Positions 15,821 to 62,320 of a DNA stretch of 64,000 nucleotides are shown here, one piece after another. Made by a program: the position numbers and the translations under genes. Origin of the DNA: Eledone cirrhosa (taxonomy: Eukaryota); the NCBI GenBank assembly GCA_964016885.1, contig OZ024743.1, positions 261,764,001 to 261,828,000 of the forward strand. Reading direction: 5' to 3'. The notes beneath the pieces are model-generated. The model did no database searches. It saw only the letters and a program-made list of their open reading frames with translations, and was not told the origin of the DNA. Position 1 is the first letter of the stretch. Every line of letters starts with the position of its first letter.

Positions 15821-16068
15821 TAGGGATTGTAACGTCCAGTTGCTGTAGGTTCCCCAGAATGAGCACTCAATGCGTAACTCCCAGTAGGTATATTGGTGTT
15901 GTACTAAGCAGAGTGTAATACTGATACTGTAATTACCATAACAGAAGTCCGATGAGATTTTGATTCCAGATTGATACAGATCGAACCTTGAGCTGATCAA
16001 TCGAGAAACGCGCGTCACACCTCAATAAACGTAATGAAGACCTAACACTTCATCTTTTTTATTATTAG
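15821..16068. mobile_element. (TA)n-embedded hammerhead-type (retrozyme/Penelope-like) element with inversion
   Basis: GAAACGCGCGTC (palindromic stem III + GUC) at 16005-16016 on +. Conserved TT-bulged hairpin at 15864-15915 on -. TA flanks. Confidence 0.6.
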
Positions 16069-16148
16069 TGTATATATATATAAGCGTGAAACTAAAAACC
16101 ATATCATTTGTACTGCCTCTCTGTTTTTTGTTCTCTGTTTATTTATTC

Positions 16149-16179
<31 letters not shown>

Positions 16180-16389
16180 ACGAAGGAAATGTGGTAAGGA
16201 ACCAGGTGGACCATAACGCACCAAAGTACTCAATACTTAGGGTAGTAGAGTGGGTAATAGGAACGAGTAGGACCCCGACGGCTGAGCTCAAGCCGTTTCG
16301 ACGGCTAATTCTGGACTAGTTTTATTCTAGTCCAGAATTAGCCGTCGAAACGGCTTGAGCTCAGTCGTCGGTGTCCTACTCGTTCCTAT
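16180..16389 (-). mobile_element. (TA)n-embedded hammerhead-type element with 63-bp fold-back
   Basis: Arms 16257-16319 and 16327-16389 (2 mismatches) each carry GAAA-CGGCT...AG(C/T)CG-TC. TT-bulged hairpin at 16228-16251. Confidence 0.65.
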
Positions 16390-16395
16390 ATATAT

Positions 16396-16524
16396 AACAT
16401 CCGCTAAGGTGAAACAATTGTTCTCGGTATGGTGAACTAACTGTTGTGTAACCACTTCTACCTAACTCATCCCTTGGACTGAGTGCTCTACCACTACGGA
16501 TATTACCTTCCAGTGTTCCACCAC
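16396..16524 (+). mobile_element. 5'-truncated (TA)n-embedded hammerhead-type element
   Basis: GAAACAATTGTT at 16411-16422. ACTC-aTCC-ctt-GGA-CT-GAGT at 16465-16484. TA on both sides. Confidence 0.45.
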
Positions 16525-16588
16525 TATATATATATATATATATATATGTGTGTGAGTGTGAATATATATGTGCATGCATATGTGTGTG

Positions 16589-16633
<45 letters not shown>

Positions 16634-16635
<2 letters not shown>

Positions 16636-19600
16636 TATCTTAGTTTTATGACGTTATTATTGTTAATATTACTACTGTTTTTCTGCTGTATTATTGATAA
16701 ATTTTCGAAGGTATCTTAGTTCCTATGACGTTATTATTGTTAATATTACTGCTGTTTTAACTTCGGATATTTACCATGCGGTATTCTAATTCTATCGCAT
16801 CTCTCTCGGTTATTTACCATGCGACCCCCAGTGCCTACCTCACAACCCCCCCATCCCACCCACCCCCTCACACCACCATAGCCTATTCGACCAATCAAAC
16901 CTCAGCATGCCATTTCCACGACTGCTGCTACTACTACTTAACTAACTCTCTCCTCCTCTGGCGCAGCCCAACACACCCTGCCATTATCCCACCACCACTG
17001 TTCTTCTAGCCCTCAATTTTCCCACCGTTATGGATGGATGAGCTGAGAATAAATTTGAGCAACTGTGAATCAATAGATGAAATATGAATCTGCGAGCTAC
17101 CAAGCACCCACGTGAAGCGCCAACCCAGAGACCCTCCCCTACGAGTGTCGACAAATGCTCAAAACTCCGAGTTGGTACCATCAATGTAGGCTCAATGAAA
17201 GGAAGAGCAGGAGAAATCGTAGAAATGCTAGAGCGAAAGGAAATTGACGTATGCTGTGTGCAAGAGACAAGATGAAGAGGAGAGTCTGCCAGAGTCCTCG
17301 TAGGAAAAAGTCGGTGCTACAAATTTTTCTGGGTGGGAAATGACGATGGGATGGGTGGTGTAGGTATACTACTAGCTGACAAGTGGGTAGATAAAGTAAT
17401 CTCAGTGTACAGGGTAAACGCAAGAATCATTAAACTCAGACTAGTCCTGAATAAAACAATTACCACAATAATATCAGCTTACACACCCCAATCGGGGCTG
17501 CCAGACGAACTTAAGGATAGGTTTTACGAGTCCCTAATACACACTACTGCTCTAACAGACGACAAGGACTTCCTAATCATCGCAGGAGATTTTAACGGAC
17601 ACGTAGGTAAACACTGCGACGGCTACAATAGAGTACATGGAGGCCATGGGGTTGGCACAAGGAATGAGGAAGGATTCAGACTTCTAGAATTCTGCGACGC
17701 CAATGACATGTCGATATGTTACACAAACTTTAAAAAACCCGACAACCACCTGATCACCTATAGATCAGGGGAGCACTCTAGTCAGTTAGATTTTATCCTC
17801 ATCAGAGGACATGACAGATGGACGGTCGTAAACACAAAAGCCTTCCCTAGTGAGGAATGTACATCCCAACATAGCTTAGTTGTCAGCGACCTCACGGTCA
17901 GAACTAGACGAGCCCTGAAACAGAGGCCAACCTGGAGAAGAAAGATCTGGAAGCTGAAAGTCCCCTCAACCAGTAACAGAATTAAAAATATCTTACTCAA
18001 CGCCTACGACAGTAAAGAAGAACAGATAGAGACATTTAATGTAGAAGAGAACTGGGAGTTCCTAAAAAATAATTTACTAGAGGCGATGGACGAGGTCTGT
18101 GGCTGGAGTAAGACCTCAAGCAGGAGGAGAGTGACTTGGTGGTGGAACAATAAGGTAGATGAAGCAGTCAAGGCCAAGAGACAGGCATGGAAAGAATGGA
18201 AGAACGGGGGGAGCAGGGTACATTACATAGAGACCAAGAGGGAAGCTAGGCGACAAGTATACTTAACTAGGAGGGAAGCAGAGGATAGAAAATTCAAGCA
18301 TGTTTTACAACGTGAGGACCAGAAACAGGAGGTATTCAAGATTGCGAGGCAGTGTGTCAGAGATAGTTGTGATGTCATTGGAGAGAAGTGTATCCGGAAT
18401 GATAAAGGTGAGCTTGCCCTCACAAGTGCTGAGAAGAAAGATACATGGAGGAGTCATTATGATAGATTACTAAATGAGGAGAATGCATGGGAAGAAGAGA
18501 CCCTACCCCAAGTAGACCCTATAGAGGGACCAGCAGTACAAGTCAGCGGCAGCGTAGTAAGTAAGGCAATCAGAGATATGAAGATGGGGAAGGCAACCGG
18601 TCCATCGGGTATAGCTGCCGAGATGCTGAACGCATCTGGGTCTGTAGGTCACACTATAACCACACGTATCGTTAACCAGGTAATACTAGAAGGGGCCATA
18701 CCAAAAGATTGGTGCAGTAGCATCATTGTCAACTGCTACAAAGGTAAAGGCGATGCACTAGATAGAGGAAACTATAGAGGTATAAAGTTGATGGACCAGG
18801 TCATGAAAGTAACAGAAAGAGTTATAGCACAGCTGATTAGGGACCGGGTGAAAATAGACGAGATGCAATTTGGGTTTGTACCAGGAAGAGGCACCACTGA
18901 TGCCCTCTTCCTTGTGAGGCAATTACAGGAAAAGTACCTAGCTAAAAGTAAGCCACTCTACTTGGCATTTGTCAACCTTGAGAAAGCCTTTGACAGAGTT
19001 CCACGTGCTGTAATCTGGTGGGCTCTTAGAAAACTAGGAGTAGATGAATGGCTTGTGAAAGCGGTACAAGCCATGTATAGGGGAGCAGTCAGCAAAGTTA
19101 GGATTAGCAATGAGTATAGCGAGGAATTTAGCGTACAGGTTGGGGTCCACCAGGGCTCTGTTCTTAGCCCTCTCCTGTTCATCATAGTCCTGCAGGCAAT
19201 AACGGAGGAGTTTAAGACCGGATGCCCATGAGTTTAAGACCGGATGCACTAGAGAATAAATTCCAAACCTGGAAGCAGGGACTAGAAAGAAAGGGTCTCA
19301 AAGTCAACATGACAAAGACTAAGGTCCTTGTAAGTAGACGAGAAAACAGAACCCAGATCCCCTCAGGGAAATGGCCTTGCTCAGTATGTAGGAAAGGTGT
19401 AGGTAGGAACTCCATTCTCTGCCCCAAATGCAAACAATGGGTACACAAGAGATGTAGCGGGATCTCAGGAAGCTTAATTAAGAATGTAGGCTTCACATGC
19501 AGCAGCTGTGCTGAGACAGCAAGCAGCAAACAGCCACAGGAAACAAGTACCACCAATCTCTGGGAGGGCTCTGTAGAAACAGTAGACAGCTTCTGTTACC

Positions 19601-20473
19601 TAGGTGACCGAATTAGCAACGGAGGTGGGTGTTCAGAAAGTGCAATAACTAGGGTAAGAACGGGATGGAAGAAGTTTAGGGAACTACTACCACTGCTAGC
19701 TGCAAAAGGCTTCTCCCTCAGAATGAAAGGCAGACTGTATGATGCGTGTATCCGAACAGCGATGTTGCATGGTAGCGAGACCTGGGTGCTGAACGTGGAA
19801 GACTTACGTAGATTAGAGAGAAACGAAGCCTGCATGCTCCGATGGATGTGTAACAATAATATACGTGAACGACAAAGCATAAATGAATTGAGAGAGAGAC
19901 TGAGCATAAGAGGAATCAAATGCTGTGTGCAGGAGAGGCGGTTGCGCTGGTATGGACATGTGATGCGTATGAAGGATGACAGCTGCATAAAAAGGTGCAG
20001 AGCACTAGAAGTTGATGGAAACCGCGGAGTGGGGAGACCCAAGATGACCTGGGATGAGGTGATAAAAGCTGACCTTACCCAATTACACCTCTCAAAGACA
20101 ATGACACACGACCGTGACTTCTGGCGTCACGCAGTAATACAGAGTACCCGACCTCCCATGGGTACCAGCTGAAACATATAGACAATATGCCCCCACGCCC
20201 CCCACCGCAAGGTGGTCGTAGAGGTGCCACGGAAAAAAAGCACCCAGCCCACACTGTAAAGTGGACGTGTAGGCGCCACGGAAAAAAGTACCCAGCACTC
20301 ACTGTAAATGAGGTTGGTGTTAGGAAGGGCATCCAGCTGTAGAAATCAAGCCAAATCAGTTCCTGTATGAGCAAGGCATGGTCAGCCGACCAGACACTGC
20401 CCACAACAGGACAACCCTTCTAACCCATGCTAGCATGGAAGAACGGATGTAAAACGGTGATGATGATGATGAT
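16634..20473 (+). mobile_element. RTE LINE family A, near full-length
   Basis: APE endonuclease (TINVG, QETR, SAYTPQ, GDFNGH, SQHSLV) plus RT, 3' UTR and (GAT)n tail. (TA)n on both sides. Confidence 0.96.
17084..20172 (+). pseudogene. RTE APE-RT polyprotein, inactivated
   Basis: Premature TGA at 17273-17275. The YADD region is deleted and the frame shifts at ~19230. Confidence 0.93.
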
Positions 20474-20490
20474 ATATGTATATATATATT

Positions 20491-20523
<33 letters not shown>

Positions 20524-20534
20524 GTATATATATG

Positions 20535-20623: not shown

Positions 20624-20781
20624 GTATAGAGTTGGGTAAAATCCCAACCAAGCAGTTTCAGCTAAAACTGCTTGGCGCTGTGGTTGGGATTTTACCTATC
20701 TCTATACCCACTCTGCAACTCCCTATGTATTGAGTACTCCTATGATTAGTGGTCTCCTCGGTCACAGCACTGCAGCCTCTC
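20624..20781 (+). mobile_element. Microsatellite-embedded hammerhead-type element with fold-back
   Basis: Imperfect inverted repeat 20624-20707. TT-bulged hairpin ACTC-TGCA...TGTA-TT-GAGT at 20710-20735. Confidence 0.55.
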
Positions 20782-27177: not shown

Positions 27178-27402
27178 ACATATAGTAATAATAATAAATT
27201 TGAAGACTAAAATCCAAAGAGGGCTTGATAAGGATAAATACATTTCAGATATATAAGAACCGTAGAGCAAATATTTATTAAAATAACAGATTAAAGTTTC
27301 TCTCTCTCTCTCTCCCCCCCCCCCTCTCTCTCTCTAAAAAGAAGAAGAAATCTCTCTCTCTATATATATTTGAATATGTGTTTAAAATACCATAGCATTT
27401 AA

Positions 27403-27565: not shown

Positions 27566-27807
27566 TTAAAGTATTTGAAAATTAAGTGATTGAATGAGCA
27601 CTCAATACTGGTGTAAAGAGTGTAGAAATTTATTTTCAAAATAGAAAAGTGCAGTTTATCTACACTTGTCTATCTGTCTGTCTGACTCTAAGGAACAGAT
27701 TTTCTTTTAAACATGTTTTATTGAAAACATATCATCTTTATTAAAGATTTTTGTGTTTCCTTATTAGTTCTTTGTTTAATTTGGAACAATTGAGTTCATA
27801 AATACAT

Positions 27808-29639: not shown

Positions 29640-32600
29640 CTCTCTCGTATTTTCCAAAACAAATCTTGTATTTTTGTTATTGCTTGTTAAATACGAAAGT
29701 TTTTGGCGTATTTTAGTAAACAAATCTTGTAGTTTTGTTATCGCTTGTTAAATACGAGGATCTCACTTAAACCTATTCTTCTCGCTAACAACTCAACACC
29801 CCTCCCTCCCGCCCCCACGCACCACCATTATTATTACGTGGACCAATCATAAGCCAGAGGCCTATACTATCGCTTACCTGGTCGCCTTCGATATGTAGGA
29901 TGGAAGGACTACGGAGTTCCGGAGAGTTGAAGAGAGAAAAATCTGGACGCTCAGCGACAATGCCAAAGATAAAGACAAACACACCTCGTGGACGAGAATG
30001 CGAGCATTCCTCTTTGTTTCGGCCGCGGATGGCTAACATAACCCCATCTCCCCCCGCTCCCACCCTCCAAACGCAATCCAAAACTTCAGAGTTGGTACCT
30101 TGAATGTAGGCACCTTAAAGGGTCGCTCTAACGAGGTTGTAGAAATGCTTGAACGTAAGGAGGTCGATGTTTGTTGTATTCAAGAGACCAGGTGGAGGGG
30201 TGGATCTGCTAGATTCATTGTGGGTAAAAAACGATGCTATAAGCTTTTCTGGATGGGAAATGACAATGGGCTGGGTGGAGTAGGAATCATGGTAGCAGAA
30301 AAGTGGGCAGATAAGATAATAGACGTAAATAGAGTGAACGACAGAATAATTAAAATAAGACTTGTCCTCAATAGAACTACGGTGACAGTAATATCTGCGT
30401 ACGCACCCCAATCCGGACTGCCCAGCACTATAAAAGACAGATTCTATGAGACACTGATGCTCACTACTTCCCAAATAACCGACAGTGACTATATAATTAT
30501 TGCAGGCGACCTAAACGGTCACGTTGGACAACATTGTGACGGCTACGACGAAATCCATGGAGGCTATGGGTTTGGTACTAGAAATGAGGAAGGCTCCAGA
30601 ATCCTGGAATTCTGTGACGCAAATAACCTAACTATCTGCAACACTAACTTCAAAAAATGAGACAATCACTTGATCACCTACAGTTCAGGGGAACATACCA
30701 GCCAGGTAGATTATATCCTTACCAGAAGACGTGACAGAGTGACTGTTGTAAACACTAAATCCCTCCCCCATGAAGAATGCACCTCCCAACATAGACTGAT
30801 AATTAGCGACCTCATAGTCAGGACGAGACGTACTCGACAGCAGAAGAGGACTATCCTCAGGAGAAAAATATGGAAGCTAAAGGACCCCACAGCCAAAAAT
30901 AAATTTCAAAGCATATTACTTGATGCTTTCGACAGTAAGGAAGAGCAATTAGAGTCGTACAAGGTAGAGGAACAGTGGGAATTCCTGAAAGCAAACCTGC
31001 TGACGGCGGCAGACGAAGTCTGTGGCTGGAGCAGGCCTGTAGGCAGGAGGAGAGTAACAGGCAATGTGTCAAGAAAAACAGCGATATTGTCGGGGAGGAC
31101 GGCGTACTTGCCATCACCGACGCTGATAAGAAGGTAGCTTGGAAGTGTCACTATGAAAGGCTACTAAATGAGGAGAATAAATGGGAGAAAGATAGTCTGC
31201 CCCAAATCGATCCAATAGAAGGACCAGCGGTGCAAGTTAAAGGTAGTATAATAAGTAAGGCAATCAAAGATATGAAGACAGGCAAGGCAGCTGGGCCTCC
31301 AGAGATAGTTGCTGAGATGTTGAAGGCATCTGGTATGGTGGGACACACTACTGTCACCCGTATAGTTAACCAAGTCATACAGGATGGGGTTGTTCCGAAG
31401 GACTGGCGTAGCAGCATCATCGTTAACTGTTATAAGGGTAAAGGAGATGCCCTAGATAGGAGTAACTATAGAGGCATTAAATTAATCGACCAGGTCATGA
31501 AGGTCACGGAAAAAGTAATAGCGCAACTAATCAGAGAGCGAATTGATCTAGATGAAATGCAGTTCGGGTTTGTGTCAGGAAAAAGTACCACAGACGCTCT
31601 TTTCATTGTACGACAACTACAGGAGAAGTACCTAGCTAAAAGTAAACCCCTATACTTAGCTTTTGTTGACTTGGAGAAAGCCTTTGACAGAGTCCCCCGC
31701 TCCATTATCTGGTGGGCTCTTAGAAAACTAGGTGTTGATGAATGGCTTGTGAGAGCTATACAAGCCATGTATAAAGAAACAGTCAGCAAGGTTAGAATTA
31801 ACAACGAATATAGTGAAGAGTTTAGTGTAAAAGTTGGTGTTCATCAGGGCTCTGTTCTTAGCCCCCTACTATTTATTATTGCCCTCCAGGCTATAACAGT
31901 GGAGTTCAAGACCGGCTGCCCATGGGAACTCCTATACGCAGATGATCTAACGCTCATAGCTGAATCAATGGCCGAGCTAGAGAAGAAATTCCAAACATGG
32001 AAGCACGGCCTAGAATCAAAAGGCCTTAAAATTAACCTGGCTAAGACTAAAGTTCTAGTTTGTAAGAAAGAAAATAAGGCGGCGGTCCCCTCCGGGAAGT
32101 GGCCATGCTCAGTGTGTAGGAAAGGCGTAGGTAGAAACTCCATTTTGTGTCCCAAATGCAAAGTATGGGTGCATAAAAGATGTAGTGGGATCACAGATAA
32201 GCTAACTAAGAACATAGATTTTACATGTGGCCGGTGTTCTGGGGTAATAAGTAGCAGCAAGTGCCCACAAAATACTAGCTCTTTCAACTGCGCAGAGGGT
32301 TCTATAGAAATAGTGGACAGCTTCCGTTACCTGGGTGACAAAATCAGTAGTGGGGGAGGGTGCTCTGAAAGTACAGTAGCTAGAGTCAGAACTGGGTGGA
32401 AAAAGTTCAGAGAGCTTATACCTCTACTAGCCGCTAAAGGGTTCTCCCTAAAAATGAAAGGCAGGCTGTATGAGGCCTGCATACGAACAGCAATGTTGCA
32501 TGGCAGTGAGACTTGGGCAGTGTGTGCAGAGGATATACGCAGACTAGAGAGAAACGAAGCTTGCATGCTCCGCTGGATGTGTAATAGTAATATACGTGAA

Positions 32601-33273
32601 CGGCAAAGCATAAACGAACTAAGGAAAAAATTAGAAATAAGAGGGATCAGACGTTGTTTATTTGAGAGAAGGCTACGTTGGTATGGTCACGTGATGCACA
32701 TGAAGGACGATAGCTGTATAACAAAGTGCAGGGCAATAAAGATAGACGGTAGCCACGGAATAGGCAGACCCAGAAAAACCTGGGACGAGCTGATAAATTC
32801 CGACCTCACACACTTACACCTCTCCAAGACAATGTCACTGGACCGAGACCTTTGGCGGTACTCAGTAATAGAGAAGACCCGCTTTACCTAAATACAAAGT
32901 AAAACCTACTACAGTCAGTAGGCATCTCTAACAAAATACACCCCGCGTCACCACCCCCACCCCACCCACACCGCCCCTTTCAATGTAAAGTTATGTTGGT
33001 GCCACAACATCCAGGCCGAAACAAATGAGATCGTGTAGGTGTCACGTCAAAAAAACACACAGTTCACGCTGTAATGTGGGCGTGTAGGCAACACGGTAAA
33101 AACCTCCCAGCCCCACACTGTAAATGTGGTTGGTGTTGGGAAGGGCATCCAGCTGTAGAAAACCCGCCAGATAGTCCTATGCGAGCAAGATAATCACTCT
33201 TGCTTCAAGTGGGAAACCCCCGTCCAAACCCATGCAAGCGTGGAACACGGACATTAAACGTTGATGATGATGA
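29640..33273 (+). mobile_element. RTE LINE family B, near full-length (5' boundary approximate)
   Basis: APE domain (30100-30820), RT (YADD), 3' UTR and (GAT)n tail. Confidence 0.94.
30100..32891 (+). pseudogene. RTE APE-RT polyprotein, inactivated
   Basis: TGA at 30658-30660. An internal deletion with frameshift at ~31058 removes the WWWN...KIA segment present in family A. Confidence 0.92.
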
Positions 33274-33480
33274 ATGAATAATATCAATTAGGTTAATTTC
33301 TATAGATTTTCTGCTGGTATACAATGTCATTTCTGCTATTATGATAGTAATTCGACAGATTTAAACAAATATTTTCTAAATTGTTTTCATGTTTGTATAT
33401 ATTGAAGAGTTTTGGCTGTTTTTTAGATATTTTGTTCAATGGCTTGTCTGTATATCATATTTACATATATTACATAAGGA

Positions 33481-35092
33481 TAGCTTTTGTCGACTTGGAG
33501 AAAGCCTTCGACAGAGTCCCCCGTTCCATTATCTGGTGGGCTCTTAGAAAACTAGGTGTTGACGAATGGCTTGTGAGAGCTATACAAGCCATGTATAAAG
33601 AAACAGTCAGCAAGGTTAGAATTAACAACGAATATAGTGAAGAGTTTAGCGTAAAAGTTGGTGTCCATCAGGGCTCTGTTCTTAGCCCCCTACTATTTAT
33701 TATTGCCCTTCAGGCTATAACAGAGGAGTTCAAGACCAGCTGCCCATGGGAACTCCTATACGCAGATGATCTAACGCTCATAGCTGAATCAATGGCCGAG
33801 CTAGAGAAGAATTCCAAACATAGAAGCATGGCCTAGAATCAAAAGGCCTTAAAATTAACCTGGCTAAGACTAAAGTTCTAGTTTGTAGGAAAGAAAATAA
33901 GGTGCCGGTCCCTTCCGGGAAATGGCCATGCTCAGTGTGTAGGAAAGGCGTAGGTAGAAACTCCATTTTATGTCCCAAATGCAAAGTATGGGTGCATAAA
34001 AGATGTAGTGGGATCACAGGTAAGCTAACTAAGAACATAGATTTTACATGTGGCCGGTGCTCTGGTGCAATAAGTAGCAGCAAGTGCCCACAAAATACTA
34101 GCTCTTTCAATTGCGCAGCGGGTTCTATAGAAATAGTGGACAGCTTCCGTTACCTGGGTGACAAAATCAGCAGTGGGGGAAGGTGCTCTGAAAGTACAGT
34201 AGCCAGAGTCAGAACTGGATGGAAAAAGTTCAGAGAGCTTATACCACTATTAGCCGCTAAAGGGTTCTCCCTAAAAATGAAAGGCAGGTTGTATGTTGCC
34301 TGCATACGGACAGCAATGTTGCATGGCAGTGAGACCTGGACATTGTGTGCAGAGGATATACGCAGACTAGAGAGGAACGAAGCTTGCATGCTCCGCTGGA
34401 TGTGTAATAGTAATATACGTGAACGGCAAATCATAAACGAACTAAGGAAAAAATTAGAAATAAGAGGGATCAGATGTTGTTTACTCAAGAGAAGGCTACG
34501 TTGGTATGGTTACGTGATGCGCATGAAAGACGACAGCTGTATAACAAAGTGCAGGGCAATAAAGATAGACGGTAGCCACGGAGTAGGCAGACCCAGAAAA
34601 ACCTGGGACGAGCTGATAAATTCCGACCTCACACACTTACACCTCTCCAAGACAATGTCACTGGACCAAGACCTTTGGTGGTACTCAGTAATAGAGAAGA
34701 CCCGCCTTACCTAAATACAAAGTAAAAACCTACTACAGTCAGTAGGCATCTCTAACCCCCCCCCCCCCCCCCCCCCAATCCACTCCGCCCCTTTCAATGT
34801 AAAGTTATGTTGGTGCCACAACATCCAGGCCGAAACAAATGACGTTGTGTAGGTGTCACGACAAAAAAAACAGTCCACGCTGTAATGTGGCCATGTAGGC
34901 AACACAGTAAAAACCTCCCAGCCCCACACTGTAAATGTGGTTGGTGTTAGGAAGGGCATCCAGCTGTAGAAAACCCACCAGACAGTCCTACGCGAGCAAG
35001 ACAACCACTCTTGCCTCAAGTGGGAAAACTCCCATCCAAACCCATGCAAGCGTGGAACATGGACGTTAAACGATGATCATGATGTTGATGAT
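33481..35092 (+). mobile_element. RTE LINE family B, 5'-truncated, frameshifted
   Basis: AFVDLEKAFDRV...YADD, frameshift and stop near 33810-33822, same 3' UTR and tail. Confidence 0.94.
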
Positions 35093-38682: not shown

Positions 38683-39128
38683 TATATTATAAAGATCTTG
38701 CTGTTTCAACAGCAAAAGAGTAAGGGCTCAGCCATTGGGCAGTAATTCATTACATTACCTACACTCTACTTTCTTAAGTATCAAGTAGTAAGCTGAACAA
38801 TGGTCTCACTAGTCTAAACTGGTAACTCCCAATTTATAAATACACACACACACACACACACACTTCAAGAGAAATATGTGTGTGTAACTCTATATATGTG
38901 TGTGTGTACATATGTATATATGTGTTTATGCACGTTTGATACAACCACATAGTTACTTCCTACTTGCATTATATATATATATATATTATGTGTGTATGTT
39001 TTCACACCGGTATCAATACCAGTGCAAATAAAAACAAATACTCAATATTGTTAAGCAGAGTGGAATGTTTATTGAAAGCTGATTCTGTGTGAAGAATCAT
39101 CACTATTTGGAGATTCTCATTCCTGATC

Positions 39129-46503: not shown

Positions 46504-47816
46504 CGAGGGGGGGATCAAAAAGTTCGCAGAATTTTTCAGAAAATAATCTATTTTTCCAAAAATATGATTTACCTTCAACTTATTTTTCTACATATATGCC
46601 ATCCAGGCCAATACACTTCACAAGGCGATGCTTCCAGCTTCGTAAGCCATCTCTAAAGAAAGTTGAAGGCCTTGTTCGAAGCCATGTGTTGGCAGTGTTT
46701 TTAGCTTCTTCAACACCACTAAAACGGGTTCCTTTTAGCATTTCTTTGAGTTTTGGAAAGAGGAAAAAGTCTGATGGGTCTAAATCTGGACTATAAGTCG
46801 GGTGAGAAAGCACTTCCCATCAAAATTCTCGAAGAACTTCTTTTGCAACCTGCGCAGAATGCACTGGTGCTTTGTCATGGTGAAACAAGATCTCACCATG
46901 AAGTTTCCCTTTTCGTTTCTTGACTAATGCCTCTTTCAGCTTCCTTAAAACATTTGCATAGTAAGCTCCTGACACATTTCTTTGACCTTCAAGATAATCT
47001 ATTAGTATCACCCCATCTGAATCCCAGAAAATGATGGCCATCACTTTTTGATCCGACTTTTGAGATTTGAACTTGATTGGCCCCGATGATCCACATGGAA
47101 GCTACTGTTTTGACTGCTGTTTGGATTCAGGATCATACTGGTAGATCCAAGTTTCATCTCCAGTGATGATTCTGGTCAGGAAATGCTCTTCATCAACTTC
47201 AATTTTGTTTAATATCGCCAAAGACAGATCACTTCGAAGAATCAGCTGATCAGGGTGCAATGCTTTTGGGACCCATCGCGCTGAAAGCTTACTTAGTCCC
47301 AAATTATCGTGCAGAATTGAATTTACTGAACCATATGAAATGTCTAGGGACTTAGCTAATTGGTTAACTGTTATTCTTCGATCTTCTTCAATTAAAGTCT
47401 GATCAGCCTCAACTTTTTGGTCATTTTTTGATGTTCCTGGTCTTCCACTGCAATGGTCGTCTTCAAGGTCGTCTCTCCCTTGTTTGAATCGCTGAATCCA
47501 CTTCTAGACAGCAGTTTTCTTTGGAGCAGTAGTACCGTAAACTTTAACTAAAGCCTCCATAATCTGTGTCCCTTTCCATTTGAGTTTCACCAGAAACTTG
47601 ATATTCGATCTTATCTCAAAATAACTATTTTCCATTGTTCCAAAAAGAGGTTTTTTAAAGAGTGTCAGTACTGTACAATAGTCCACGCATGACTGACTGC
47701 AAGTGACTAATAGCAAGGTTAACACCTAGTGACAATGTTCTGACATGTTTAATATTGTTTTAACCTGATTTTTTCTTGCTACAATAAAATTCCACAAACT
47801 TTTTGATCCCCCCTCG
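46504..47816 (-). mobile_element. Full-length mariner transposon
   Basis: TA|CGAGGGGGGGATCAAAAAGTT ... AACTTTTTGATCCCCCCTCG|TA. 1313 bp. Confidence 0.95.
46580..47635 (-). pseudogene. DD34D mariner transposase with in-frame stops
   Basis: MENSYFEIRSNIKF...WVPKAL...TGDETW...HHDKAPVH...YSPDLDPSDF in one frame. Stops at 47504, 47102 and 46820. Confidence 0.93.
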
Positions 47817-52450: not shown

Positions 52451-52615
52451 CAAATCTGATGTCCCATGCTTGGTGGGAAATAGGATGCATGGCTGTCTTT
52501 CTCTTTTACTGGGTTTTATGGGTAGGAGAGCTTTCTAACTTTGTGTATGTGTGTGTAAATATATCCATCTATCTATCTATCTATCTAATATATATCTATA
52601 TATATATATAGGTAT

Positions 52616-54047
52616 TAGAATGATCGAGTATCGAAAAATCGGCGCACGAGTTCACGATAAACAAAATTCGAAATGAGCGGCAGAGGGCTCAATAATTCAG
52701 ATGAATCAGAGCTATAACTATCGTTAAAATACCGTCACACATAGAACAAGTCTAAAATCAACCATACGATAAAAAAAATCGATAATAGAAGATTCGGGAC
52801 AATCAGATAAAAAGTATCAATAAATCAATAAATCAATAATTTAAATGAATGTAAAATCATACCCGGACCCGCTAGAAAGGTGTTAAATCTAGCTTCTTGG
52901 GTTTCTGTAAATCCTTAGACTGTACTCTATCAGCTCACATATAAATATATAAGACTTCTAGAATAAGCGGACTGGAAATTTACTTTTTCAACGAGCTTCG
53001 TCCTAGCGGATAAGAGGCTAACTACAAGCAAAATACGCACATGGAATCCGGCAAGGGAGATAACCTCTACATCCGCGAAAACTATTCGAGGAAATGTGGA
53101 AATACACATATCGAATAAAAGTGCTCAATAGACATGTTAAAATAAAACAGGAGCTATTCATCACTCAATAGAATCGACAAAAAATGAGCAATAAAATTAA
53201 CTGGTGGATAGCTATGTCCAGAGCTAAAAATATTAGAATGATCGAGTATCGAAAAATCGGCGCACGAGTTCACGATAAACAAAATTCGAAATGAGCGGCA
53301 GAGGGCTCAATAATTCAGATGAATCAGAGCTATAACTATCGTTAAAATACCGCCACACATAGAACAAGTCTAAAATCAACCATACGATAAAAAAATCGAT
53401 AATAGAAGATTCGGGACAATCAGATAAAAAATATCAATAAATCAATAAATCAATAATTTAAATGAATGTAAAATCATACCCGGACCCGCTAGAAAGGTGT
53501 TAAATCTAGCTTCTTGGGTTTCTGTAAATCCTTAGACTGTACTCTATCAGCTCACATATAAATATATAAGACTTCTAGAATAAGCGGACTGGAAATTTAC
53601 TTTTTCAACGAGCTTCGTCCTAGCGGATAAGAGGCTAACTACAAGCAAAATACGCACATGGAATCCGGCAAGGGAGATAACCTCTACATCCGCGAAAACT
53701 ATTCGAGGAAATGTGGAAATACACATATCGAATAAAAGTGCTCAATAGACATGTTAAAATAAAACAGGAGCTATTCATCACTCAATAGAATCGACAAAAA
53801 ATGAGCAATAAAATTAACTGGTGGATAGCTATGTCCAGAGCTAAAAATATTAGAATGATCGAGTATCGAAAAATCGGCGCACGAGTTCACGATAAACAAA
53901 ATTCGAAATGAGCGGCAGAGGGCTCAATAATTCAGATGAATCAGAGCTATAACTATCGTTAAAATACCGTCACACATAGAACAAGTCTAAAATCAACCAT
54001 ACGATAAAAAAATCGATAATAGAAGATTCGGGACAATCAGATAAAAA
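52616..54047 (-). mobile_element. Tandem 617/618-bp non-coding element (~2.3 units) with 16-bp TSD, retrozyme-like
   Basis: Units start at 52613, 53231 and 53848. Flanked by atatatatataggtat at 52600-52615 and 54048-54063. TT-bulged hairpin at 52687-52712. Confidence 0.8.
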
Positions 54048-54159
54048 ATATATATATAGGTATACAAGTTACCGTTTTCAGTTACTCTGTAAATGCCTGA
54101 AATAAATCCTATTGTATTGCTAATTTGTGTAAATCTTTATTTATCTATTTGTATAAATG

Positions 54160-54216: not shown

Positions 54217-57200
54217 TCATCATCATCATCATCATCACCGTTTTACGTCCGTTCTTCCACGCTAGCATGGGTTAGACGGGTTGTCCTGTTGTGGGCAGTG
54301 TCTGGTCGGCTGACCATGCCTTGCTCATACAGGAACTGATCTGGCTTGATTTCTACAGCTGGATGCCCTTCCTAACACCAACCTCATTTACAGTGAGTGC
54401 TGGGTGCTTTTTCGTGGCGCCTACACGTCCACTTTACAGTGTGGGCTGGGTGCTTTTTTGCCATGGCACCTCCACGACCACCTTGCGGTGGGGGGAGTGG
54501 GGGCATATTGTTTATATGCTTCAGCATGTACCCATGGGAGGTCGGGTACCCTGTATTACTGCGTGACGCCAGAAGTCACGGTCGTGTGTCATTGTCTTTG
54601 AGAGGTGTAGTTGGGTAAGGTCGGCTTTTATCACCTCATCCCAAGTCATCTTGGGTCTCCCCACTCCGCGGTTTCCATCAACTTCTAGTGCTCTGCACAT
54701 TTTTATGCAGCTGTCATCCTTCATACGCATCACATGTCCATACCAGCGTAACCGCCTCTCCTGCACGCAGCATTTGATTCCTCTTATGCTCAGTCTCTCT
54801 CTCAATTCCTTTATGCTTTGTCGTTCACGTATATTACTGTTACACATCCATCGGAGCATGCAGGCTTCGTTTCTCTCTAATCTACGTAAGTCTTCCACCC
54901 AGGTCTCACTACCATGCAACATCGCTGTTCGGATACACGCATCATACAATCTGCCTTTCATTCTGAGGGAGAAGCCTTTTGCAGCTAGCAGTGGTAGTAG
55001 TTCCCTAAACTTCTTCCATCCCGTTCTTACCCTAATTATTGTACTTTCTGAGCACCCACCTCCGTTGCTAATTCGGTCACCTAGGTAGCAGAAGCTGTCT
55101 ACTGTTTCTACAGGGCCCTCCCAGAGATTGGTGGTACTTGTTTCCTGTGGCTGTTTGCTGCTTGCTGTCTCAGCACAGCTGCTGCATGTGAAGCCTACAT
55201 TCTTAATTAAGCTTCCTGAGATCCCGCTACATCTCTTGTGTACCCATTGTTTGCATTTGGGGCAGAGAATGGAGTTCCTACCTACACCTTTCCTACATAC
55301 TGAGCAAGGCCATTTCCCTGAGGGGATCTGGGTTCTGTTTTCTCGTCTACTTACAAGGACCTTAGTCTTTGTCATGTTGACTTTGAGGCCCTTTCTCTCT
55401 AGTCCCTGCTTCCAGGTTTGGAATTTATTCTCTAGTTCTACCATAGATTCAGCTATGAGTGCGAGGTCATCAGCATACAGGAGTTCCCATGGGCATCTGG
55501 TCTTAAACTCCTCCGTTATTGCCTGCAGGACTATGATGAACAGGAGAGGGCTAAGAACAGAGCCCTGGTGGACCCCAACCTGTACGCTAAATTCCTCGCT
55601 ATACTCATTGCTAATCCTAACTTTGCTGACTGCTCCCCTATACATGGCTTGTACCGCTTTCACAAGCCATTCATCTACTCCTAGTTTTCTAAGAGCCCAC
55701 CAGATTACAGCACGTGGAACTCTGTCAAAGGCTTTCTCAAGGTCGACAAATGCCAAGTAGAGTGGCTTACTTTTAGCTAGGTACTTTTCCTGTAATTGCC
55801 TCACAAGGAAGAGGGCATCAGTGGTGCCTCTCCCTGGTACAAACCCAAATTGCATCTCGTCTATATTCACCCGGTCCCTAATCAGCTGTGCTATAACTCT
55901 TTCTGTTACTTTCATGACCTGGTCCATCAACTTTATACCTCTATAGTTTCCTCTATCTAGTGCATCGCCTTTACCTTTGTAGCAGTTGACAATGATGCTA
56001 CTGCACCAATCTTTTGGTATGGCCCCTTCTAGTATTACCTGGTTAACGATACATGTGGTTATAGTGTGACCTACAGACCCAGATGCCTTCAGCATCTCGG
56101 CAGCTATACCCGATGGACCGGTTGCCTTCCCCATCTTCATATCTCTGATTGCCTTACTTACTACGCTGCCGCTGACTTTTACTGCTGGTCCCTCTATAGG
56201 GTCTACATGGGATAGGGTCTCTTCTTCCCATGCATTCTCCTCATTTAGTAATCTATCATAATGACTCTTCCATGCATCTTTCTTCTCAGCACTTGTGAGG
56301 GCAAGCTCACCTTTATCATTCCGGATACACTTCTCTCCAATGACATCACAACTATCTCTGACACACTGCCTCGCAATCTTGAATACCTCCTGTTTCTGGT
56401 CCTCACGTTGTAAAACATGCTTGAATTTTCTATCCTCTGCTTCCCTCCTAGCTAAGTATACTTGTCGCCTAGCTTCCCTCTTGGTCTCTATGTAATGTAC
56501 CCTGCTCCCCCCGTTCTTCCATTCTTTCCATGCCTGTCTCTTGGCCTTGACTGCTTCATCTACCTTATTGTTCCACCACCAAGTCACTCTCCTCCTGCTT
56601 GAGGTCTTACTCCAGCCACAAACCTCATCCGTCGCCTCTAGTAAGTTATTTTTTAGGAACTCCCAGTTCTCTTCTACGTTAAATGTCTCTATCTGTTCTT
56701 CTTTACTGTCGTAGGCGTTGAGTAAAATATCTTTAAATCTGTTACTGGTTGAGGGGACTTTCAGCTTTCAGATCTTTCTTCTCCAGGTTGGCCTCTGTTT
56801 CAGGGCTCGTCTAGTTCTGACCGTGAGGTCGCTGACAACTAAGCTATGTTGGGATGTACATTCCTCACTAGGGAAGGCTTTTGTGTTTACGACCGTCCAT
56901 CTGTCACGTCCTCTGATGAGGATAAAATCTAACTGACTAGAGTGCTCCCCTGATCTATAGGTGATCAGGTGGTTGTCGGGTTTTTTAAAGTTTGTGTTAC
57001 ATATCGACATGTCATTGGCGTCGCAGAATTCTAGAAGTCTGAATCCTTCCTCATTCCTTGTGCCAACTCCATGGCCTCCATGTACTCTATTGAAGCCGTC
57101 GCAGTGTTTACCTACGTGTCCGTTAAAATCTCCTGCAATGATTAGGAAGTCCTTGTCGTCTGTTAGAGCAGTAGTGTGTATTAGGGACTCGTAAAACCTA

Positions 57201-57491
57201 TCCTTAAGTTCGTCTGGCAGCCCCGATTGGGGTGCGTAAGCTGATATTATTGTTGTAATTGTCTTATTCAGGACTAGTCTGAGTTTAATGATTCTTGCAT
57301 TTACCCTGTACACTGAGATTACTTTATCTACCCACTTGTCAGCTAGTAGTATACCTACACCACCCATCCCATCGTCATTTCCCACCCAGAAAAATTTGTA
57401 GCACTGGCTTTTTCCTACAAGGACTCTAGCAGACCCTCCTCTCCATCTAGTCTCTTGCACACAGCATACATCAACTTCCTTTCGCTCTAGC

Positions 57492-57495
<4 letters not shown>
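54213..57495 (-). mobile_element. RTE LINE family A, slightly 5'-truncated, inserted in (TA)n
   Basis: APE plus RT, (CAT)n tail, (TA)n on both sides. Confidence 0.96.
54521..57493 (-). pseudogene. RTE APE-RT polyprotein with one nonsense codon
   Basis: ORFs 56768-57493 and 54521-56587 are in the same frame, separated by TGA (W codon) at 56768-56770. 3-aa deletion in ETW--VED. Confidence 0.93.
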
Positions 57496-57537
<42 letters not shown>

Positions 57538-57677
57538 CTTTGGGAGGGTCATGTTGCCAATAAGAAACACATGCACCAGTTGCTTTCACTCCAATTTATT
57601 ATAAATTAAATTTATAAATTTAAGAATTTATAAATTTCCAGTTGGTTGGTTGGTTCCACAACCGGACGGTTGTTCAT

Positions 57678-57732
57678 ATATTGTCAAAGTTCTTTCGTCA
57701 CACATTCTGTGACCTCTTCAGTATAACAATAT
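57678..57732 (-). ncRNA. Degenerate type I hammerhead ribozyme in a (TA)n-flanked insert (57535-57789)
   Basis: atattgtta-ta-CTGAAGA-g-GTCACA-gaatg-TGTGAC-GAAA-gaactt-tgacaatat. Stems I and II pair; stem III is poor. Confidence 0.55.
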
Positions 57733-58047
57733 CGGTTTCAACACACGTTTTCAGATAAAGAATCTTGCTAAACAAATTCAGAAACGAAATATATATATAT
57801 AATTACTGTTTAATTACGGAAGGAAGAGCATAACCCATTGACCCTTTTCCAGGTATACATGGCTGGTCAGATGGAGGATCCAAAAGCTTGCAACTGAGTG
57901 GACTATGATAGGATAGTATATCCTTATGCCTGCCTTTATACATCTTTAATCCTGTCATGTTTCTTTCATTTTACATCCCCACCACACATTCTATTCTTAT
58001 ATTCTCCCAAATGACTTTATCGTTATCTCATTCTCTTGTTATTACAG

Positions 58048-58541: not shown

Positions 58542-59468
58542 GAACCAGCAGTACTAGTGTGGATGCCTTGCAGTTTGTTGTGGTACCTGCAACATTATTG
58601 TGGCACCAGCAGCACTATTGTGGTTGCTTTGCAGTTTGTTGTGGAACCAGCAGTAGTATTGTGGTTGCTTTGCAGTTTGTTGTGGCACCAACAGCACTAT
58701 TGTGGTTGCTTTGCAGTTTGTTGTGGCACCAGCAGCACTATTGTGGTTGCTTTGCAGTTTGTTGTGGCACCAACAGCACTATTGTGGTTGCTTTGCAGTT
58801 TGTTGTGGCACCAACAGCACTATTGTGGTTGCTTTGCAGTTTGTTGTGGCACCAGCAGCACTATTGTGGTTGCTTTGCAGTTTGTTGTGGCACCAGCAGC
58901 ACTATTGTGGTTGCTTTGCAGTTTGTTGTGGCACCAACAGCACTATTGTGGTTGCTTTGCAGTTTGTTGTGGCACCAGCAGCACTATTGTGGTTGCTTTG
59001 CAGTTTGTTGTGGCACCAACAGCACTATTGTGGTTGCTTTGCAGTTTGTTGTGGCACCAGCAGCACTATTGTGGTTGCTTTGCAGTTTGTTGTGGCACCA
59101 GCAGCACTATTGTGGTTGCTTTGCAGTTTGTTGTGGCACCAACAGCACTATTGTGGTTGCTTTGCAGTTTGTTGTGGCACCAGCAGTAGTATTGTGGTTG
59201 CTTTGCAGTTTGTTGTGGCACCATCAGCACTATTGTGGTTGCTTTGCAGTTTGTTGTGACACCAGCAGTAATATTGTGGTTGCTTTGCAGTTTGTTGTGA
59301 CACCAGCAGTAATATTGTGGTTGCTTTGCAGTTTATTGTGGCACCAGTAGTACTATTGTGGTTGCTTTGCAGTTTGTTGTGGCACCAGCAGTAGTATTGT
59401 GGTTGCTTTGCAGTTTATTGTGGCACCAGTAGTACTATTGTGGTTGCTTTGCAGTTTATTGTGACACC
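58542..59468. repeat. 41-bp minisatellite, ~22 copies
   Basis: Unit gcaccagcagcactattgtggttgctttgcagtttgttgtg. Variants accumulate at both ends. Confidence 0.95.
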
Positions 59469-60076: not shown

Positions 60077-60141
<65 letters not shown>

Positions 60142-60221
60142 GATAAGCAGAACAAGTAAAATTCAATCAATTTTTCAAAATACATTAAAAAATATAATAT
60201 AAATATTTACCTCTTCTAGTG

Positions 60222-60303
60222 GCCCTTACTGATCAGTTTCGCTTTGTAAAACCTCATAAATCCGATGGATTCATGATGGAAAACCAAAGCTCATCAGAGA
60301 AGC
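60222..60303 (-). ncRNA. Type I hammerhead ribozyme (unit 1)
   Basis: Reverse complement of 61806-61887. TCATCAG at 60291-60297. Confidence 0.82.
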
Positions 60304-60697
60304 ATTTTCCCATCCTAGGGCTAAACGTCCCAGGAACGACAAAATATACAACCTCCTGCCAGCTAATAAAGGTCGTAAAAGTGACCCGTATGTAAACTGG
60401 ACCGAAGTAAAAGCGGGAAAATCAAAGACTTGCTGTCTACAATTACTACTAAAGAAATAGCAGCCTAGTAAAGCAACAGATTTGTTCTCAACGGACGGAG
60501 AAAAAGGTATAAGTTAATATGTCCAGGGATACTAGGTACCCCTAGAAATACATAGGTTGTCTATGATTCAGGGTTGTTCAATGGTGTTAATTTGATACAC
60601 CAGAACTTTAATATTAAGATAAGCAGAACAAGTAAAATTCAATCAATTTTTCAAAATACATTAAAAAATATAATATAAATATTTACCTCTTCTAGTG

Positions 60698-60779
60698 GCC
60701 CTTACTGATCAGTTTCGCTTTGTAAAACCTCATAAATCCGATGGATTCATGATGGAAAACCAAAGCTCATCAGAGAAGC
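60698..60779 (-). ncRNA. Type I hammerhead ribozyme (unit 2)
   Basis: TCATCAG at 60767-60773, same sequence as unit 1. Confidence 0.82.
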
Positions 60780-61182
60780 ATTTTCCCATCCTAGGGCTAA
60801 ACGTCCCAGGAACGACAAAATATACAACCTCCTGCCAGCTAATAAAGGTCTGAAAGGTCGTAAAAGTGACCCGTATGTAAACTGGACCGAAGTAAAAGCG
60901 GGAAAATCAAAGACTTGCTGTCTACAATTACTACTAAAGAAATAGCAGCCTAGTAAAGCAACAGATTTGTTCTCAACGGACGGAGAAAAAGGTATAAGTT
61001 AATATGTCCAGGGATACTAGGTACCCCTAGAAATACATAGGTTGTCTATGATTCAGGGTTGTTCAATGGTGTTAATTTGATACACCAGAACTTTAATATT
61101 AAGATAAGCAGAACAAGTAAAATTCAATCAATTTTTCAAAATACATTAAAAAATATAATATAAATATTTACCTCTTCTAGTG

Positions 61183-61265
61183 GCCCTTACTGATCAGTTT
61201 CGCTTTGTAAAACCTCATAAATCCGATGGATTTTATGATGGAAAACCAAAGCTCATCAGAGAAGC
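61183..61265 (-). ncRNA. Type I hammerhead ribozyme (unit 3)
   Basis: TCATCAG at 61253-61259. Small change in distal stem II. Confidence 0.8.
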
Positions 61266-61805
61266 ATTTTCCCATCCTAGGGCTAAACGTCCCAGGAACG
61301 ACAAAATATACAACCTCCTGCCAGCTAATAAAGGTCTGAAAGGTCGTAAAAGTGACCCGTATGTAAACTGGACCGAAGTAAAAGCGGGAAAATCAAAGAC
61401 TTGCTGTCTACAATTACTACTAAAGAAATAGCAGCCTAGTAAAGCAACAGATTTGTTCTCAACGGACGGAGAAAAAGGTATAAGTTAATATGTCCAGGGA
61501 TACTAGGTACCCCTAGAAATACATAGGTTGTCTATGATTCAGGGTTGTTCAATGGTGTTAATTTGATACACCAGAACTTTAATATTAAGATACCTTTTTC
61601 TCCGTCCGTTGAGAACAAATCTGTTGCTTTACTAGGCTGCTATTTCTTTAGTAGTAATTGTAGACAGCAAGTCTTTGATTTTCCCGCTTTTACTTCGGTC
61701 CAGTTTACATACGGGTCACTTTTACGACCTTTCAGACCTTTATTAGCTGGCAGGAGGTTGTATATTTTGTCGTTCCTGGGACGTTTAGCCCTAGGATGGG
61801 AAAAT

Positions 61806-61887
61806 GCTTCTCTGATGAGCTTTGGTTTTCCATCATGAATCCATCGGATTTATGAGGTTTTACAAAGCGAAACTGATCAGTAAGGGC
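61806..61887 (+). ncRNA. Type I hammerhead ribozyme (inverted unit)
   Basis: gcttct-CTGATGA(61812-18)-GCTTTG...tcatgaatcc-atc-ggatttatga...CAAAGC-GAAA(61869-72)-CTGATCAG-TA|agggc. Intact core, palindromic stem III, predicted GUA cleavage after 61882. Confidence 0.85.
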
Positions 61888-62073
61888 CACTAGAAGAGGT
61901 AAATATTTATATTATATTTTTTAATGTATTTTGAAAAATTGATTGAATTTTACTTGTTCTGCTTATCTTAATATTAAAGTTCTGGTGTATCAAATTAACA
62001 CCATTGAACAACCCTGAATCATAGACAACCTATGTATTTCTAGGGGTACCTAGTATCCCTGGACATATTAACT

Positions 62074-62108
<35 letters not shown>

Positions 62109-62110
62109 AC

Positions 62111-62320
62111 ATGAGCCCCAGGTTCACTTGGGGGTAACCACAGTAAGTAAGGTACTCAATACATTAGTAGAGTGTAAAACTCAAATTTAATATAGAAATG
62201 GCTTCTACAGGACTAGAACTGTTTCATTCAAAGGAAGGCATCAGGAAAACCATTTCCTGGTGATTTCCTTTGAATGAAACAGTTCTAGTCCTGTAGAAGC
62301 CATTTCTATATTAAATTTGA
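62111..62320. mobile_element. Hammerhead-type element with 140-bp fold-back
   Basis: Inverted repeat 62181-62320. tttc-CTGGTGA-tttcctttgaat-GAAA-CAG-ttctagtc-CTG-TA|gaag on +; the other arm has core CTGATGC. TT-bulged hairpin at 62154-62173. Confidence 0.7.

What the first reader, a model, noticed from the sequence alone, without database searches (positions are those of the whole stretch)
15821..62173. A covarying UU-bulged hairpin unites otherwise dissimilar (TA)n-targeted hammerhead elements
Seen, written in element sense: CACTC-TGC...GCA-TT-GAGTG (15864-15915,-); ACTC-TACT...AGTA-TT-GAGT (16228-16251,-); ACTC-TGCA...TGTA-TT-GAGT (20710-20735,+); GCTC-TGATTC...GAATTA-TT-GAGC (52687-52712,-); GTTC-TGGTGT...ACACCA-TT-GAAC (61979-62009,+); ACTC-TAC...GTA-TT-GAGT (62154-62173,-). 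Looser versions lie at 16465-16484, 39040-39061 and 27599-27622. Only TC-T...A-TT-GA is invariant; both helices show compensatory changes (ACTC/GAGT, GCTC/GAGC, GTTC/GAAC; TAC/GTA, TGC/GCA). The motif lies ~40-70 nt upstream of the element 3' end at the microsatellite junction, and downstream of the hammerhead where one is present. Established: hammerheads occur in Penelope-like elements and metazoan non-LTR retrozymes. I do not know this hairpin from that literature. Inference: a cis-recognition signal for the trans-acting RT that positions priming, defining a diverse family of ribozyme-bearing parasites.
Basis: partly seen in the sequence, partly recalled or inferred. Interest (0 to 1): 0.9.

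Follow-up and report, generated by a model that had tools for sequence, protein, structure and literature searches.

The report
Twin hairpins mark retrotransposon copying starts
A small bulged hairpin occurs twice near the end of a widespread group of telomerase-related jumping genes, each copy a few bases from one of the two places where inserted copies end, so it likely tells the copying enzyme where to start and would explain these elements' long-puzzling optional tails and mirror-image insertions.

Summary
The hairpin is real and belongs to Hydra-clade Penelope-like retrotransposons (PLEs). One sub-pattern has 57,481 genome matches against 9 for its control. The 16228 copy comes from an intact autonomous Hydra PLE.

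In 90 foreign Hydra loci chosen by protein alone, the motif (RYUC-N..N'-UN-GARY-RCU) occurs twice between hammerhead and start codon (HP1, HP2). Its bulge-closing pair switches U-A/C-G at least 7 times on the tree.

Insertion ends lie 0-6 nt 5' of HP1 (short end) or of HP2 (tail end) in 21 of 29 foreign comparisons and in four host families. The PLE 'tail' is thus the HP1-to-HP2 spacer.

In the main host family, short and tail ends number 20,003 and 20,642. Inverted insertions pair one of each (21 of 21 and 16 of 17 resolved cases).

Best reading: each hairpin is an RT-binding start signal, and two RTs prime from both sides of a (TA)n cut. Not found in Rfam or in the papers searched. No binding or RNA data exist here. 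The 618-bp family shows tail ends only.

The parts
16228..16251 (-). HP1 of a foldback insertion (16177-16389) of the autonomous Hydra-clade family 1; tail arm ends at 16177, inverted short arm ends at 16389, 5 nt before HP1 in element coordinates
16277..16299 (-). 3' half of the family-1 hammerhead (GAAA, stem III, cleavage triplet); 5' core lost by truncation
   Evidence: architecture read by eye
15864..15915 (-). HP1 with long loop; tail arm ends at about 15820; this arm starts only about 10 nt 5' of the hairpin
15949..16016 (+). Hammerhead (core with one changed base) in the inverted short arm of the 15864 insertion; short end at 16069, about 5 nt before HP1 in family coordinates
20710..20735 (+). 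HP1 of a foldback insertion; the other arm stops 2 nt before HP1; parent not traced
62154..62173 (-). HP1 of a foldback insertion; the other arm stops 7 nt before HP1
62206..62244 (-). Type I hammerhead with a changed core upstream of the 62154 hairpin
   Evidence: relatives with intact CUGAUGA core
60135..61592 (-). Three tandem 485-bp units (no ORF of 120 aa or more), ending at the short end 60135, 4 nt before HP1; HP1 copies 60576-60606, 61061-61091, 61547-61577; HP2 copies 60486-60501, 60971-60986, 61457-61472; hammerheads 60227-60297, 60703-60773, 61188-61259
61593..62077 (+). Inverted single 485-bp unit ending at the tail end 62077 (6 nt before HP2 in unit coordinates); HP2 61599-61614, hammerhead 61812-61882, HP1 61979-62009
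52613..54053 (-). Tandem 618-bp units, tail-ended at 52613 (6 nt before HP2), 5'-truncated, flanked by an apparent TA-rich target-site duplication; HP1 52687-52712, 53305-53330, 53922-53947
53740..53841 (-). HP2 of the 618-bp unit with a long internal insert (second copy 53123-53224); forms in the minimum-energy fold
53483..53550 (-). Hammerhead-like element of the 618-bp unit with a non-canonical core
   Evidence: read by eye; not verified
27223..27268 (-).
27599..27622 (-). Probable decayed HP1
39040..39061 (-). Probable decayed HP1, inner helix broken
16482..16491 (-).

Best explanation
The hairpin is a conserved element of Hydra-clade Penelope-like retrotransposons that occurs twice between the hammerhead and the start codon, and each copy likely binds the element's telomerase-like reverse transcriptase and makes it start copying a few bases on the hairpin's 5' side. 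Shown: two copies, covariation, and insertion ends 0-6 nt 5' of HP1 (short end) or HP2 (tail end). Inferred steps: the GIY-YIG nuclease cuts (TA)n on both strands; one RT bound at HP1 and one at HP2 each pair a DNA end with the U/A-rich bases just 5' of the hairpin and copy the RNA towards its 5' end; the two cDNAs are joined, which gives an inverted insertion with one tail-less and one tailed arm. When only one end is extended, a direct insertion results. Non-coding tandem units (485 bp, 618 bp) keep both hairpins and would be moved in trans.
For: Parent: a 784-aa open frame with Hydra motifs in 3.53-kb tandem units carries the 16228 hairpin and a second one right after the tail end. Clade-wide: of 37 hammerhead-to-ORF segments in 34 foreign loci, 28 have two sequence-only matches (27 without L273, counted twice on one anchor), 7 one, 2 none. 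Covariation without selecting on pairing: HP1 closing pair Watson-Crick in 35 of 39 families (U-A 19, C-G 16; shuffle max 29 of 5000), next pairs 25 and 22 of 39; at least 7 changes on a 36-taxon tree, 5 forced by well-supported branches. Ends: 21 of 29 foreign 3' copies diverge 0-6 nt before HP1 or HP2; host family 1 -5/-3, 485-bp unit -4/-6, 618-bp unit tail -6 (offsets to HP2 counted from the printed reference), L151 family tail -4. 33 of 40 inverted arms stop 2-10 nt before HP1. 20,003 short and 20,642 tail ends. Opposite ends: short-anchored 21 tail, 0 short of 30; tail-anchored 16 short, 1 tail of 30. Frangieh 2024 (PMC11167929): a Poseidon RT starts at two internal sites bounding the tail, needs RNA 3' of them, extends both strands, and is predicted to be a dimer.
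Against: No binding, probing or RNA data. In context the hairpin is absent from the minimum-energy fold for 16228, 20710, 62154, 39040 and the family-1 read-through. The 618-bp family has no inverted arm in 25 of 25 loci and only tail ends. One tail-plus-tail insertion (L388) and 9 and 13 unresolved of 30. 19 of 33 foldbacks have arms of nearly equal length, which snap-back copying would also give. HP2 inner pairs 2 and 3 do not beat shuffles (322 and 190 of 5000). G-U over A-C asymmetry is weak (17 to 8). 8 of 29 foreign comparisons do not fit. The motif was not seen in the Hydra-1_Obim consensus, nor at Neptune- or Poseidon-like ends here, so it does not explain all PLE tails. TA microhomology blurs the exact start by a few bases.
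Confidence: 0.68

Rival explanations
1. One priming event plus snap-back: cDNA starts at HP2, folds back on itself and is copied until HP1, which acts as a stop or boundary signal rather than a start signal.
For: It predicts tail-plus-short pairing and near-equal arms; 19 of 33 foldbacks have arms within 8 nt of each other.
Against: In 9 of 33 the short arm reaches more than 8 nt further 5' than the tail arm; in L389 and L395 the tail arm lacks HP1 altogether. In the window the short-ended arm has three 485-bp units against one, and the 15864 short arm holds a hammerhead that the tail arm lacks. HP1 and HP2 are the same motif at the same offset from their ends.
Confidence: 0.12
2. The motif is read as DNA by the endonuclease or by end-processing (in cDNA or the donor copy), which trims the transposition intermediate next to each hairpin.
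For: Craig 2021 ascribes the tail to EN-mediated resolution. Frangieh 2024 cites that the Penelope tail was needed for EN recognition. Strand asymmetry here is weak.
Against: Compensatory changes across a loop with a one-sided bulge need a single strand. A cDNA that ends at the short site never contained HP1 if it started there. Frangieh mapped the two ends to RT start sites directly.
Confidence: 0.1
3. The hairpins serve translation or RNP assembly (HP2 lies 16-67 nt before the ORF), and the ends are set independently by U/A-rich microhomology with (TA)n.
For: HP2 is close to the start codon; the bases 5' of each hairpin are U/A-rich.
Against: Non-coding units keep both hairpins. Other TA-rich places in the AT-rich UTRs are rarely used: 43 sampled family-1 ends fall on two positions and 8 more within 6 nt of the tail end. 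It does not explain the 1:1 pairing of ends.
Confidence: 0.1

Closest known systems
Hydra clade of Penelope-like elements (Craig et al. 2021, PMC8557442)
   Same: Single RT-EN ORF with RW(K/R), DKT, CxCx5C, CxxC and CxH motifs; hammerhead; (TA)n targets; tandem and inverted copies with an optional tail. By eye the hairpin is in Hydra-2_Amil, Hydra-2_Ajap and (twice) Hydra-1_Ajap, degenerate in Hydra-1_Amil and Hydra-1_Crog, not seen in Hydra-1_Obim.
   Different: The paper does not mention it ('hairpin' and 'stem-loop' 0 times in main text and supplement text). Tails here are 55-105 nt rather than 30-40, and the host unit is 3.5 kb with a hammerhead whose core reads UUGAGAA.
Poseidon PAc internal initiation (Frangieh et al. 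2024, PMC11167929)
   Same: Two internal RT start sites bound the tail; RNA 3' of the start sites is required; AT-rich DNA is cut and extended on both strands; uncleaved RNA is the template.
   Different: They place initiation inside one AC-rich stem-loop and name no conserved or repeated signal. By eye the printed PAc template has no RYUC/UN-GARY motif. Pairing of one short and one tail end per insertion is not reported.
Metazoan non-LTR retrozymes (Cervera and de la Pena 2020, PMC7229834; Li et al. 2026, 10.64898/2026.07.22.740005)
   Same: Non-coding tandem units with a type I hammerhead, proposed to be moved by PLEs and derived from pLTRs.
   Different: Neither text seen names a cis signal for the PLE RT; the 485-bp and 618-bp units carry the two Hydra hairpins and end next to them.
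L1 twin priming; telomerase RNA template positioning; hepadnavirus epsilon (all recalled, not from a call)
   Same: Two primers on one target give 5' inversions; an RT-bound RNA helix fixes the template register; a bulged stem-loop is an RT start signal.
   Different: In L1 the second priming is opportunistic and internal, not set by a duplicated signal. Epsilon templates from its bulge with a protein primer. Here the start lies just outside the hairpin on its 5' side.

Membership tests
Hydra-clade PLE (host family 1) | Single ORF with a PLE/telomerase-like RT and C-terminal GIY-YIG nuclease | tested here: met
   784-aa open frame; 822 homologues at E<=1e-30; model of homologue P0009 (pLDDT 91) is nearest to TERT structures. 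The nuclease part is assigned by likeness to the published Hydra proteins only; Pfam gave no hit.
Hydra-clade PLE (host family 1) | RWK-type motif, DKT, no GxKF/Y | tested here: met
   LRWR, DKT, no GxKF/Y in P0001; definition
Hydra-clade PLE (host family 1) | CxCx5C linker; C-terminal CxxC and CxH; CCHH absent | tested here: met
   absence of CCHH judged by eye
Hydra-clade PLE (host family 1) | Canonical hammerhead in the pLTR | tested here: inconclusive
   Type I fold read by eye with core UUGAGAA, which matches a U3-A8 variant recalled from memory; other host families have CUGAUGA
Hydra-clade PLE (host family 1) | Insertion into (TA)n; tandem and inverted copies with optional tail | tested here: met
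Hydra-clade PLE (host family 1) | Generally shorter than 3 kb | tested here: not met
   Unit 3.53 kb because of a long 3' UTR; a tendency in the paper, not a strict criterion
Hydra-clade PLE (host family 1) | Placement in an RT tree with reference Hydra, Neptune, Nematis and Poseidon proteins | not tested
   Reference proteins were available only as paper text
Non-LTR retrozyme (485-bp and 618-bp units) | Non-coding tandem units each with a type I hammerhead | tested here: inconclusive
   Met for the 485-bp unit; the 618-bp unit has only a non-canonical hammerhead-like core
Non-LTR retrozyme (485-bp and 618-bp units) | Self-cleavage and circular RNA in vivo | not testable with these tools
Neptune or Poseidon PLE | Motif at the 3' end of GIY-YIG-bearing Neptune- or Poseidon-like families | tested here: not met
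   50 GIY-YIG loci: model hits that were inspected belong to neighbouring Hydra insertions; one internal look-alike in a Neptune-like UTR
Known Rfam family | Match to a covariance model | tested here: not met
   0 hits at gathering in the window; only microsatellite-driven miRNA hits below gathering in 11 loci

The most novel reading that the evidence does not exclude
Hydra-clade PLEs use programmed twin priming: a duplicated RNA hairpin loads two telomerase-like RTs on one uncleaved transcript, one at each end of a double-strand cut in (TA)n. The PLE tail and the inverted pseudo-LTR are then the direct footprint of two cis-encoded start sites, and any RNA with the hairpin pair can be mobilised.
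Probability: 0.5. Interest if true: 0.88.

Novelty: new variant of a known kind. Interest (0 to 1): 0.8.

Why it matters
How PLEs form their tails and tandem or inverted insertions is named as an open question by Craig 2021, and the only in vitro study found the two start sites but not the signal that sets them. A motif of about 25 nt, conserved in Hydra-clade elements from cnidarian, echinoderm and many unnamed marine sources and tied to both ends, makes this directly testable with a few mutations. It gives a cis link between retrozyme-like units and their PLE driver. It gives a classifier for tens of thousands of tiny palindromic inserts that hold no protein sequence. It may also define the minimal RNA handle of a telomerase-related RT.

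Tried and rejected
Rfam: nothing. Pfam and PDB by sequence: nothing for the ORF. Viral contigs: no relatives. A sequence-free scan for bulged hairpins was swamped by microsatellites. The first relaxed pattern gave 55 hits in 790 kb, of which only 17 lay 30-90 nt from (TA)n; control bulges gave similar totals, so short patterns alone are mostly chance.

A Neptune-like family first looked like the parent because of a hairpin about 300 nt after its stop codon. I rejected it: the UTR runs on past it, and both arms pass through it. A first end-mapping of foreign loci failed on indels and was redone by local alignment. MAFFT did not align the variable loops, so model R1 was seeded with 15 equal-length hairpins; pair counts on A4 lean towards that structure, and the independent counts are. 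The tree is the quick one; the careful search did not finish.

Earlier scan findings: none. Lunse 2017 and Pyatkov 2004 are not held, so they could mention the motif unseen; Repbase entries could too. Supplements of the bioRxiv preprint were not seen. Parents of the 15864, 20710 and 62154 families were not traced to an ORF.
Full report
Observation. The strict motif occurs 11 times in the window against 0.83 expected. One sub-pattern alone has 57,481 matches in the 3.0-Gb genome against 9 for the reversed control. The host was not identified.

Anatomy in the window. Four inserts (15864, 16228, 20710, 62154) are foldbacks between microsatellites. One arm carries the hairpin and a 43-62 nt tail; the inverted arm stops 2-7 nt before the place where the hairpin would begin. 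The 60135-62077 locus has the same plan with 485-bp hammerhead units: three units ending 4 nt before the hairpin, and one inverted unit running 99 nt past its start. Genome copies of this unit repeat the two ends (11 short and 7 tail ends among overlapping loci). The 52613-54053 locus is a direct 618-bp tandem.

Parent. Long copies of the 16228 family led upstream into an RT-like frame. A search with it found intact 784-aa frames in 3.53-kb tandem units. The protein has the features that Craig 2021 lists for the Hydra clade, and a homologue's predicted fold is closest to telomerase RT. In read-through units the hairpin (HP1) lies in the leader of the next ORF, and a second copy (HP2) begins 3 nt after the tail end; the short end is 5 nt before HP1. 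Another host Hydra family shows the same: tail end 4 nt before HP2, then the start codon; its HP1 is at 27223-27268 in the window. The 485-bp and 618-bp units have an HP2 6 nt after their tail ends.

Clade-wide test. I took 90 loci from public metagenome and genome contigs by protein likeness alone. With a sequence-only rule that asks for no pairing, 28 of 37 hammerhead-to-ORF segments (34 loci) hold two matches, 7 one, 2 none (one of the 28 is a double count). That is 63 matches in 7,339 nt against 129 in 316,310 nt of reverse strand. Spacings are 69-103 nt from hammerhead core to HP1 and 55-75 nt (once 125) from HP1 to HP2. One HP1 per family gives Watson-Crick pairs at the three inner positions in 35, 25 and 22 of 39, each above all 5000 shuffles. 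HP2 (22 families) gives 19, 10 and 10, and only the first is unusual. The U-A/C-G switch of the closing pair needs at least 7 changes on a quick tree of 36 proteins, 5 forced by well-supported branches (36 of the 39 families, three mis-anchored ones left out). The outer helix is nearly invariant in these loci, so it says nothing on pairing there. In the host it varies as ACUC/GAGU, GCUC/GAGC and GUUC/GAAC, but those rows were selected by pairing. In 790 kb of unselected genome, 33 of 40 model hits have (TA)n 15-110 nt downstream against 9.2% background; these hits are not independent, since families repeat. The published Hydra consensi carry the motif clearly in 3 of 6, degenerately in 2, and not visibly in 1 (by eye). 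Four 9-mer probes of its 3' half hit the Hydra file 4 times and the much larger Naiad and Chlamys files 3 times, none of those at an element end.

Ends. In 29 comparisons of a 3' copy with a complete leader, 21 diverge 0-6 nt before HP1 or HP2. In the host, 33 of 40 inverted arms stop 2-10 nt before HP1; 3 of the other 7 are read-through copies inside tandems, 1 is the Neptune look-alike, 3 stop earlier. For family 1 the genome holds 20,003 exact short ends and 20,642 exact tail ends. Of 30 loci anchored on a short end, 21 have an inverted tail end opposite, none a short end, and 9 are unresolved by script (2 of them are tail ends by eye). Of 30 anchored on a tail end, 16 have a short end opposite, 1 a tail end, and 13 are unresolved (the two sets overlap and come from the start of one contig). 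The short arm reaches more than 8 nt further 5' than the tail arm in 9 of 33 foldbacks, the reverse holds in 5, and 19 are near equal. Most arms stop inside the hammerhead, past its predicted cleavage site, which points to an uncleaved or re-ligated template.

Mechanism. Shown: duplication, covariation, end positions, end pairing. Inferred: RT binding to each hairpin, priming on the U/A-rich bases just 5' of it, two RTs working from the two sides of one cut. This agrees with Frangieh 2024, where a Poseidon protein starts at two internal sites bounding the tail, needs RNA 3' of them, extends both strands and is predicted to dimerise. Against: the hairpins are weak and often absent from the minimum-energy fold; the 618-bp family has no inverted arm in 25 of 25 loci; no RNA or protein data exist here; and Neptune- and Poseidon-like families in this genome lack the motif at their ends. 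Rivals are snap-back with HP1 as a stop, end-processing at the DNA level, and a translation role.

Literature seen. Frangieh 2024: parts 1-3 of 4, and a search of the supplement text. Li 2026 preprint: parts 1-3 of 5. Craig 2021: passages, outline, section 11, supplement parts 1, 2, 52, 53 and two searches. Passages only: PMC7229834, PMC8969392, PMC13282606, PMC6765202, PMC4209133, PMC5737381. Ten searches showed no description of this motif or of end pairing. Subscription papers, Repbase notes, Lunse 2017 and Pyatkov 2004 were not visible. L1 twin priming, telomerase template positioning, epsilon and the U3-A8 hammerhead variant are recalled.

Verdict. The elements are members or derivatives of a known clade. 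The duplicated hairpin, its tie to both insertion ends and the one-of-each pairing appear undescribed and turn an open question about PLE integration into a direct experiment. New variant of a known kind; interest 0.8.

Noticed in passing
L212 about 6785-6870 (+); L117, L093: The family-1 hammerhead core reads UUGAGAA in the young subfamily (a U3-A8 type, recalled) and CUGAGAA or UUGACAA in older copies; a very active family with a non-canonical ribozyme.
   Followed up: partly
L204-L213; one search list: Dozens of intact 784-aa Hydra ORFs with the same score suggest a currently active PLE; with about 20,000 foldbacks it is a major source of short palindromes in this genome.
   Followed up: partly
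L293-L303 (genome contigs): Hydra-clade PLEs with hammerheads and (TA)n ends lie in 13 loci filed under bacterial genomes or MAGs, likely animal contamination.
   Followed up: no
window 52613-54053; L304-L328: The 618-bp unit inserts without an inverted arm, with an apparent TA-rich target duplication, a non-canonical hammerhead core and an HP2 with a long insert.
   Followed up: partly
L135, L128, L145, L170 (about 300 nt after the stop codon): A Neptune-like family has an internal look-alike of the motif in its 3' UTR; probably chance, but conserved within the family.
   Followed up: partly
L202+L203, first unit: About 15 tandem copies of a stretch of roughly 50 nt from inside the ORF precede the 5'-truncated unit, suggesting repeated RT template slippage.
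   Followed up: no
window 12896-14200, 17276-20172, 30037-34714, 54521-57493: Several RTE-type LINE copies with endonuclease and RT frames, some nearly intact.
   Followed up: no
window 57495-57800 (-): A separate hammerhead-bearing insert between (TA)n tracts (core at 57693-57721) without the hairpin, probably another PLE clade.
   Followed up: no
window 58598-59468: 41-bp minisatellite with 21 copies; a Tc1/mariner-like transposase fragment lies at 47102-47503 (recognised by eye).
   Followed up: no
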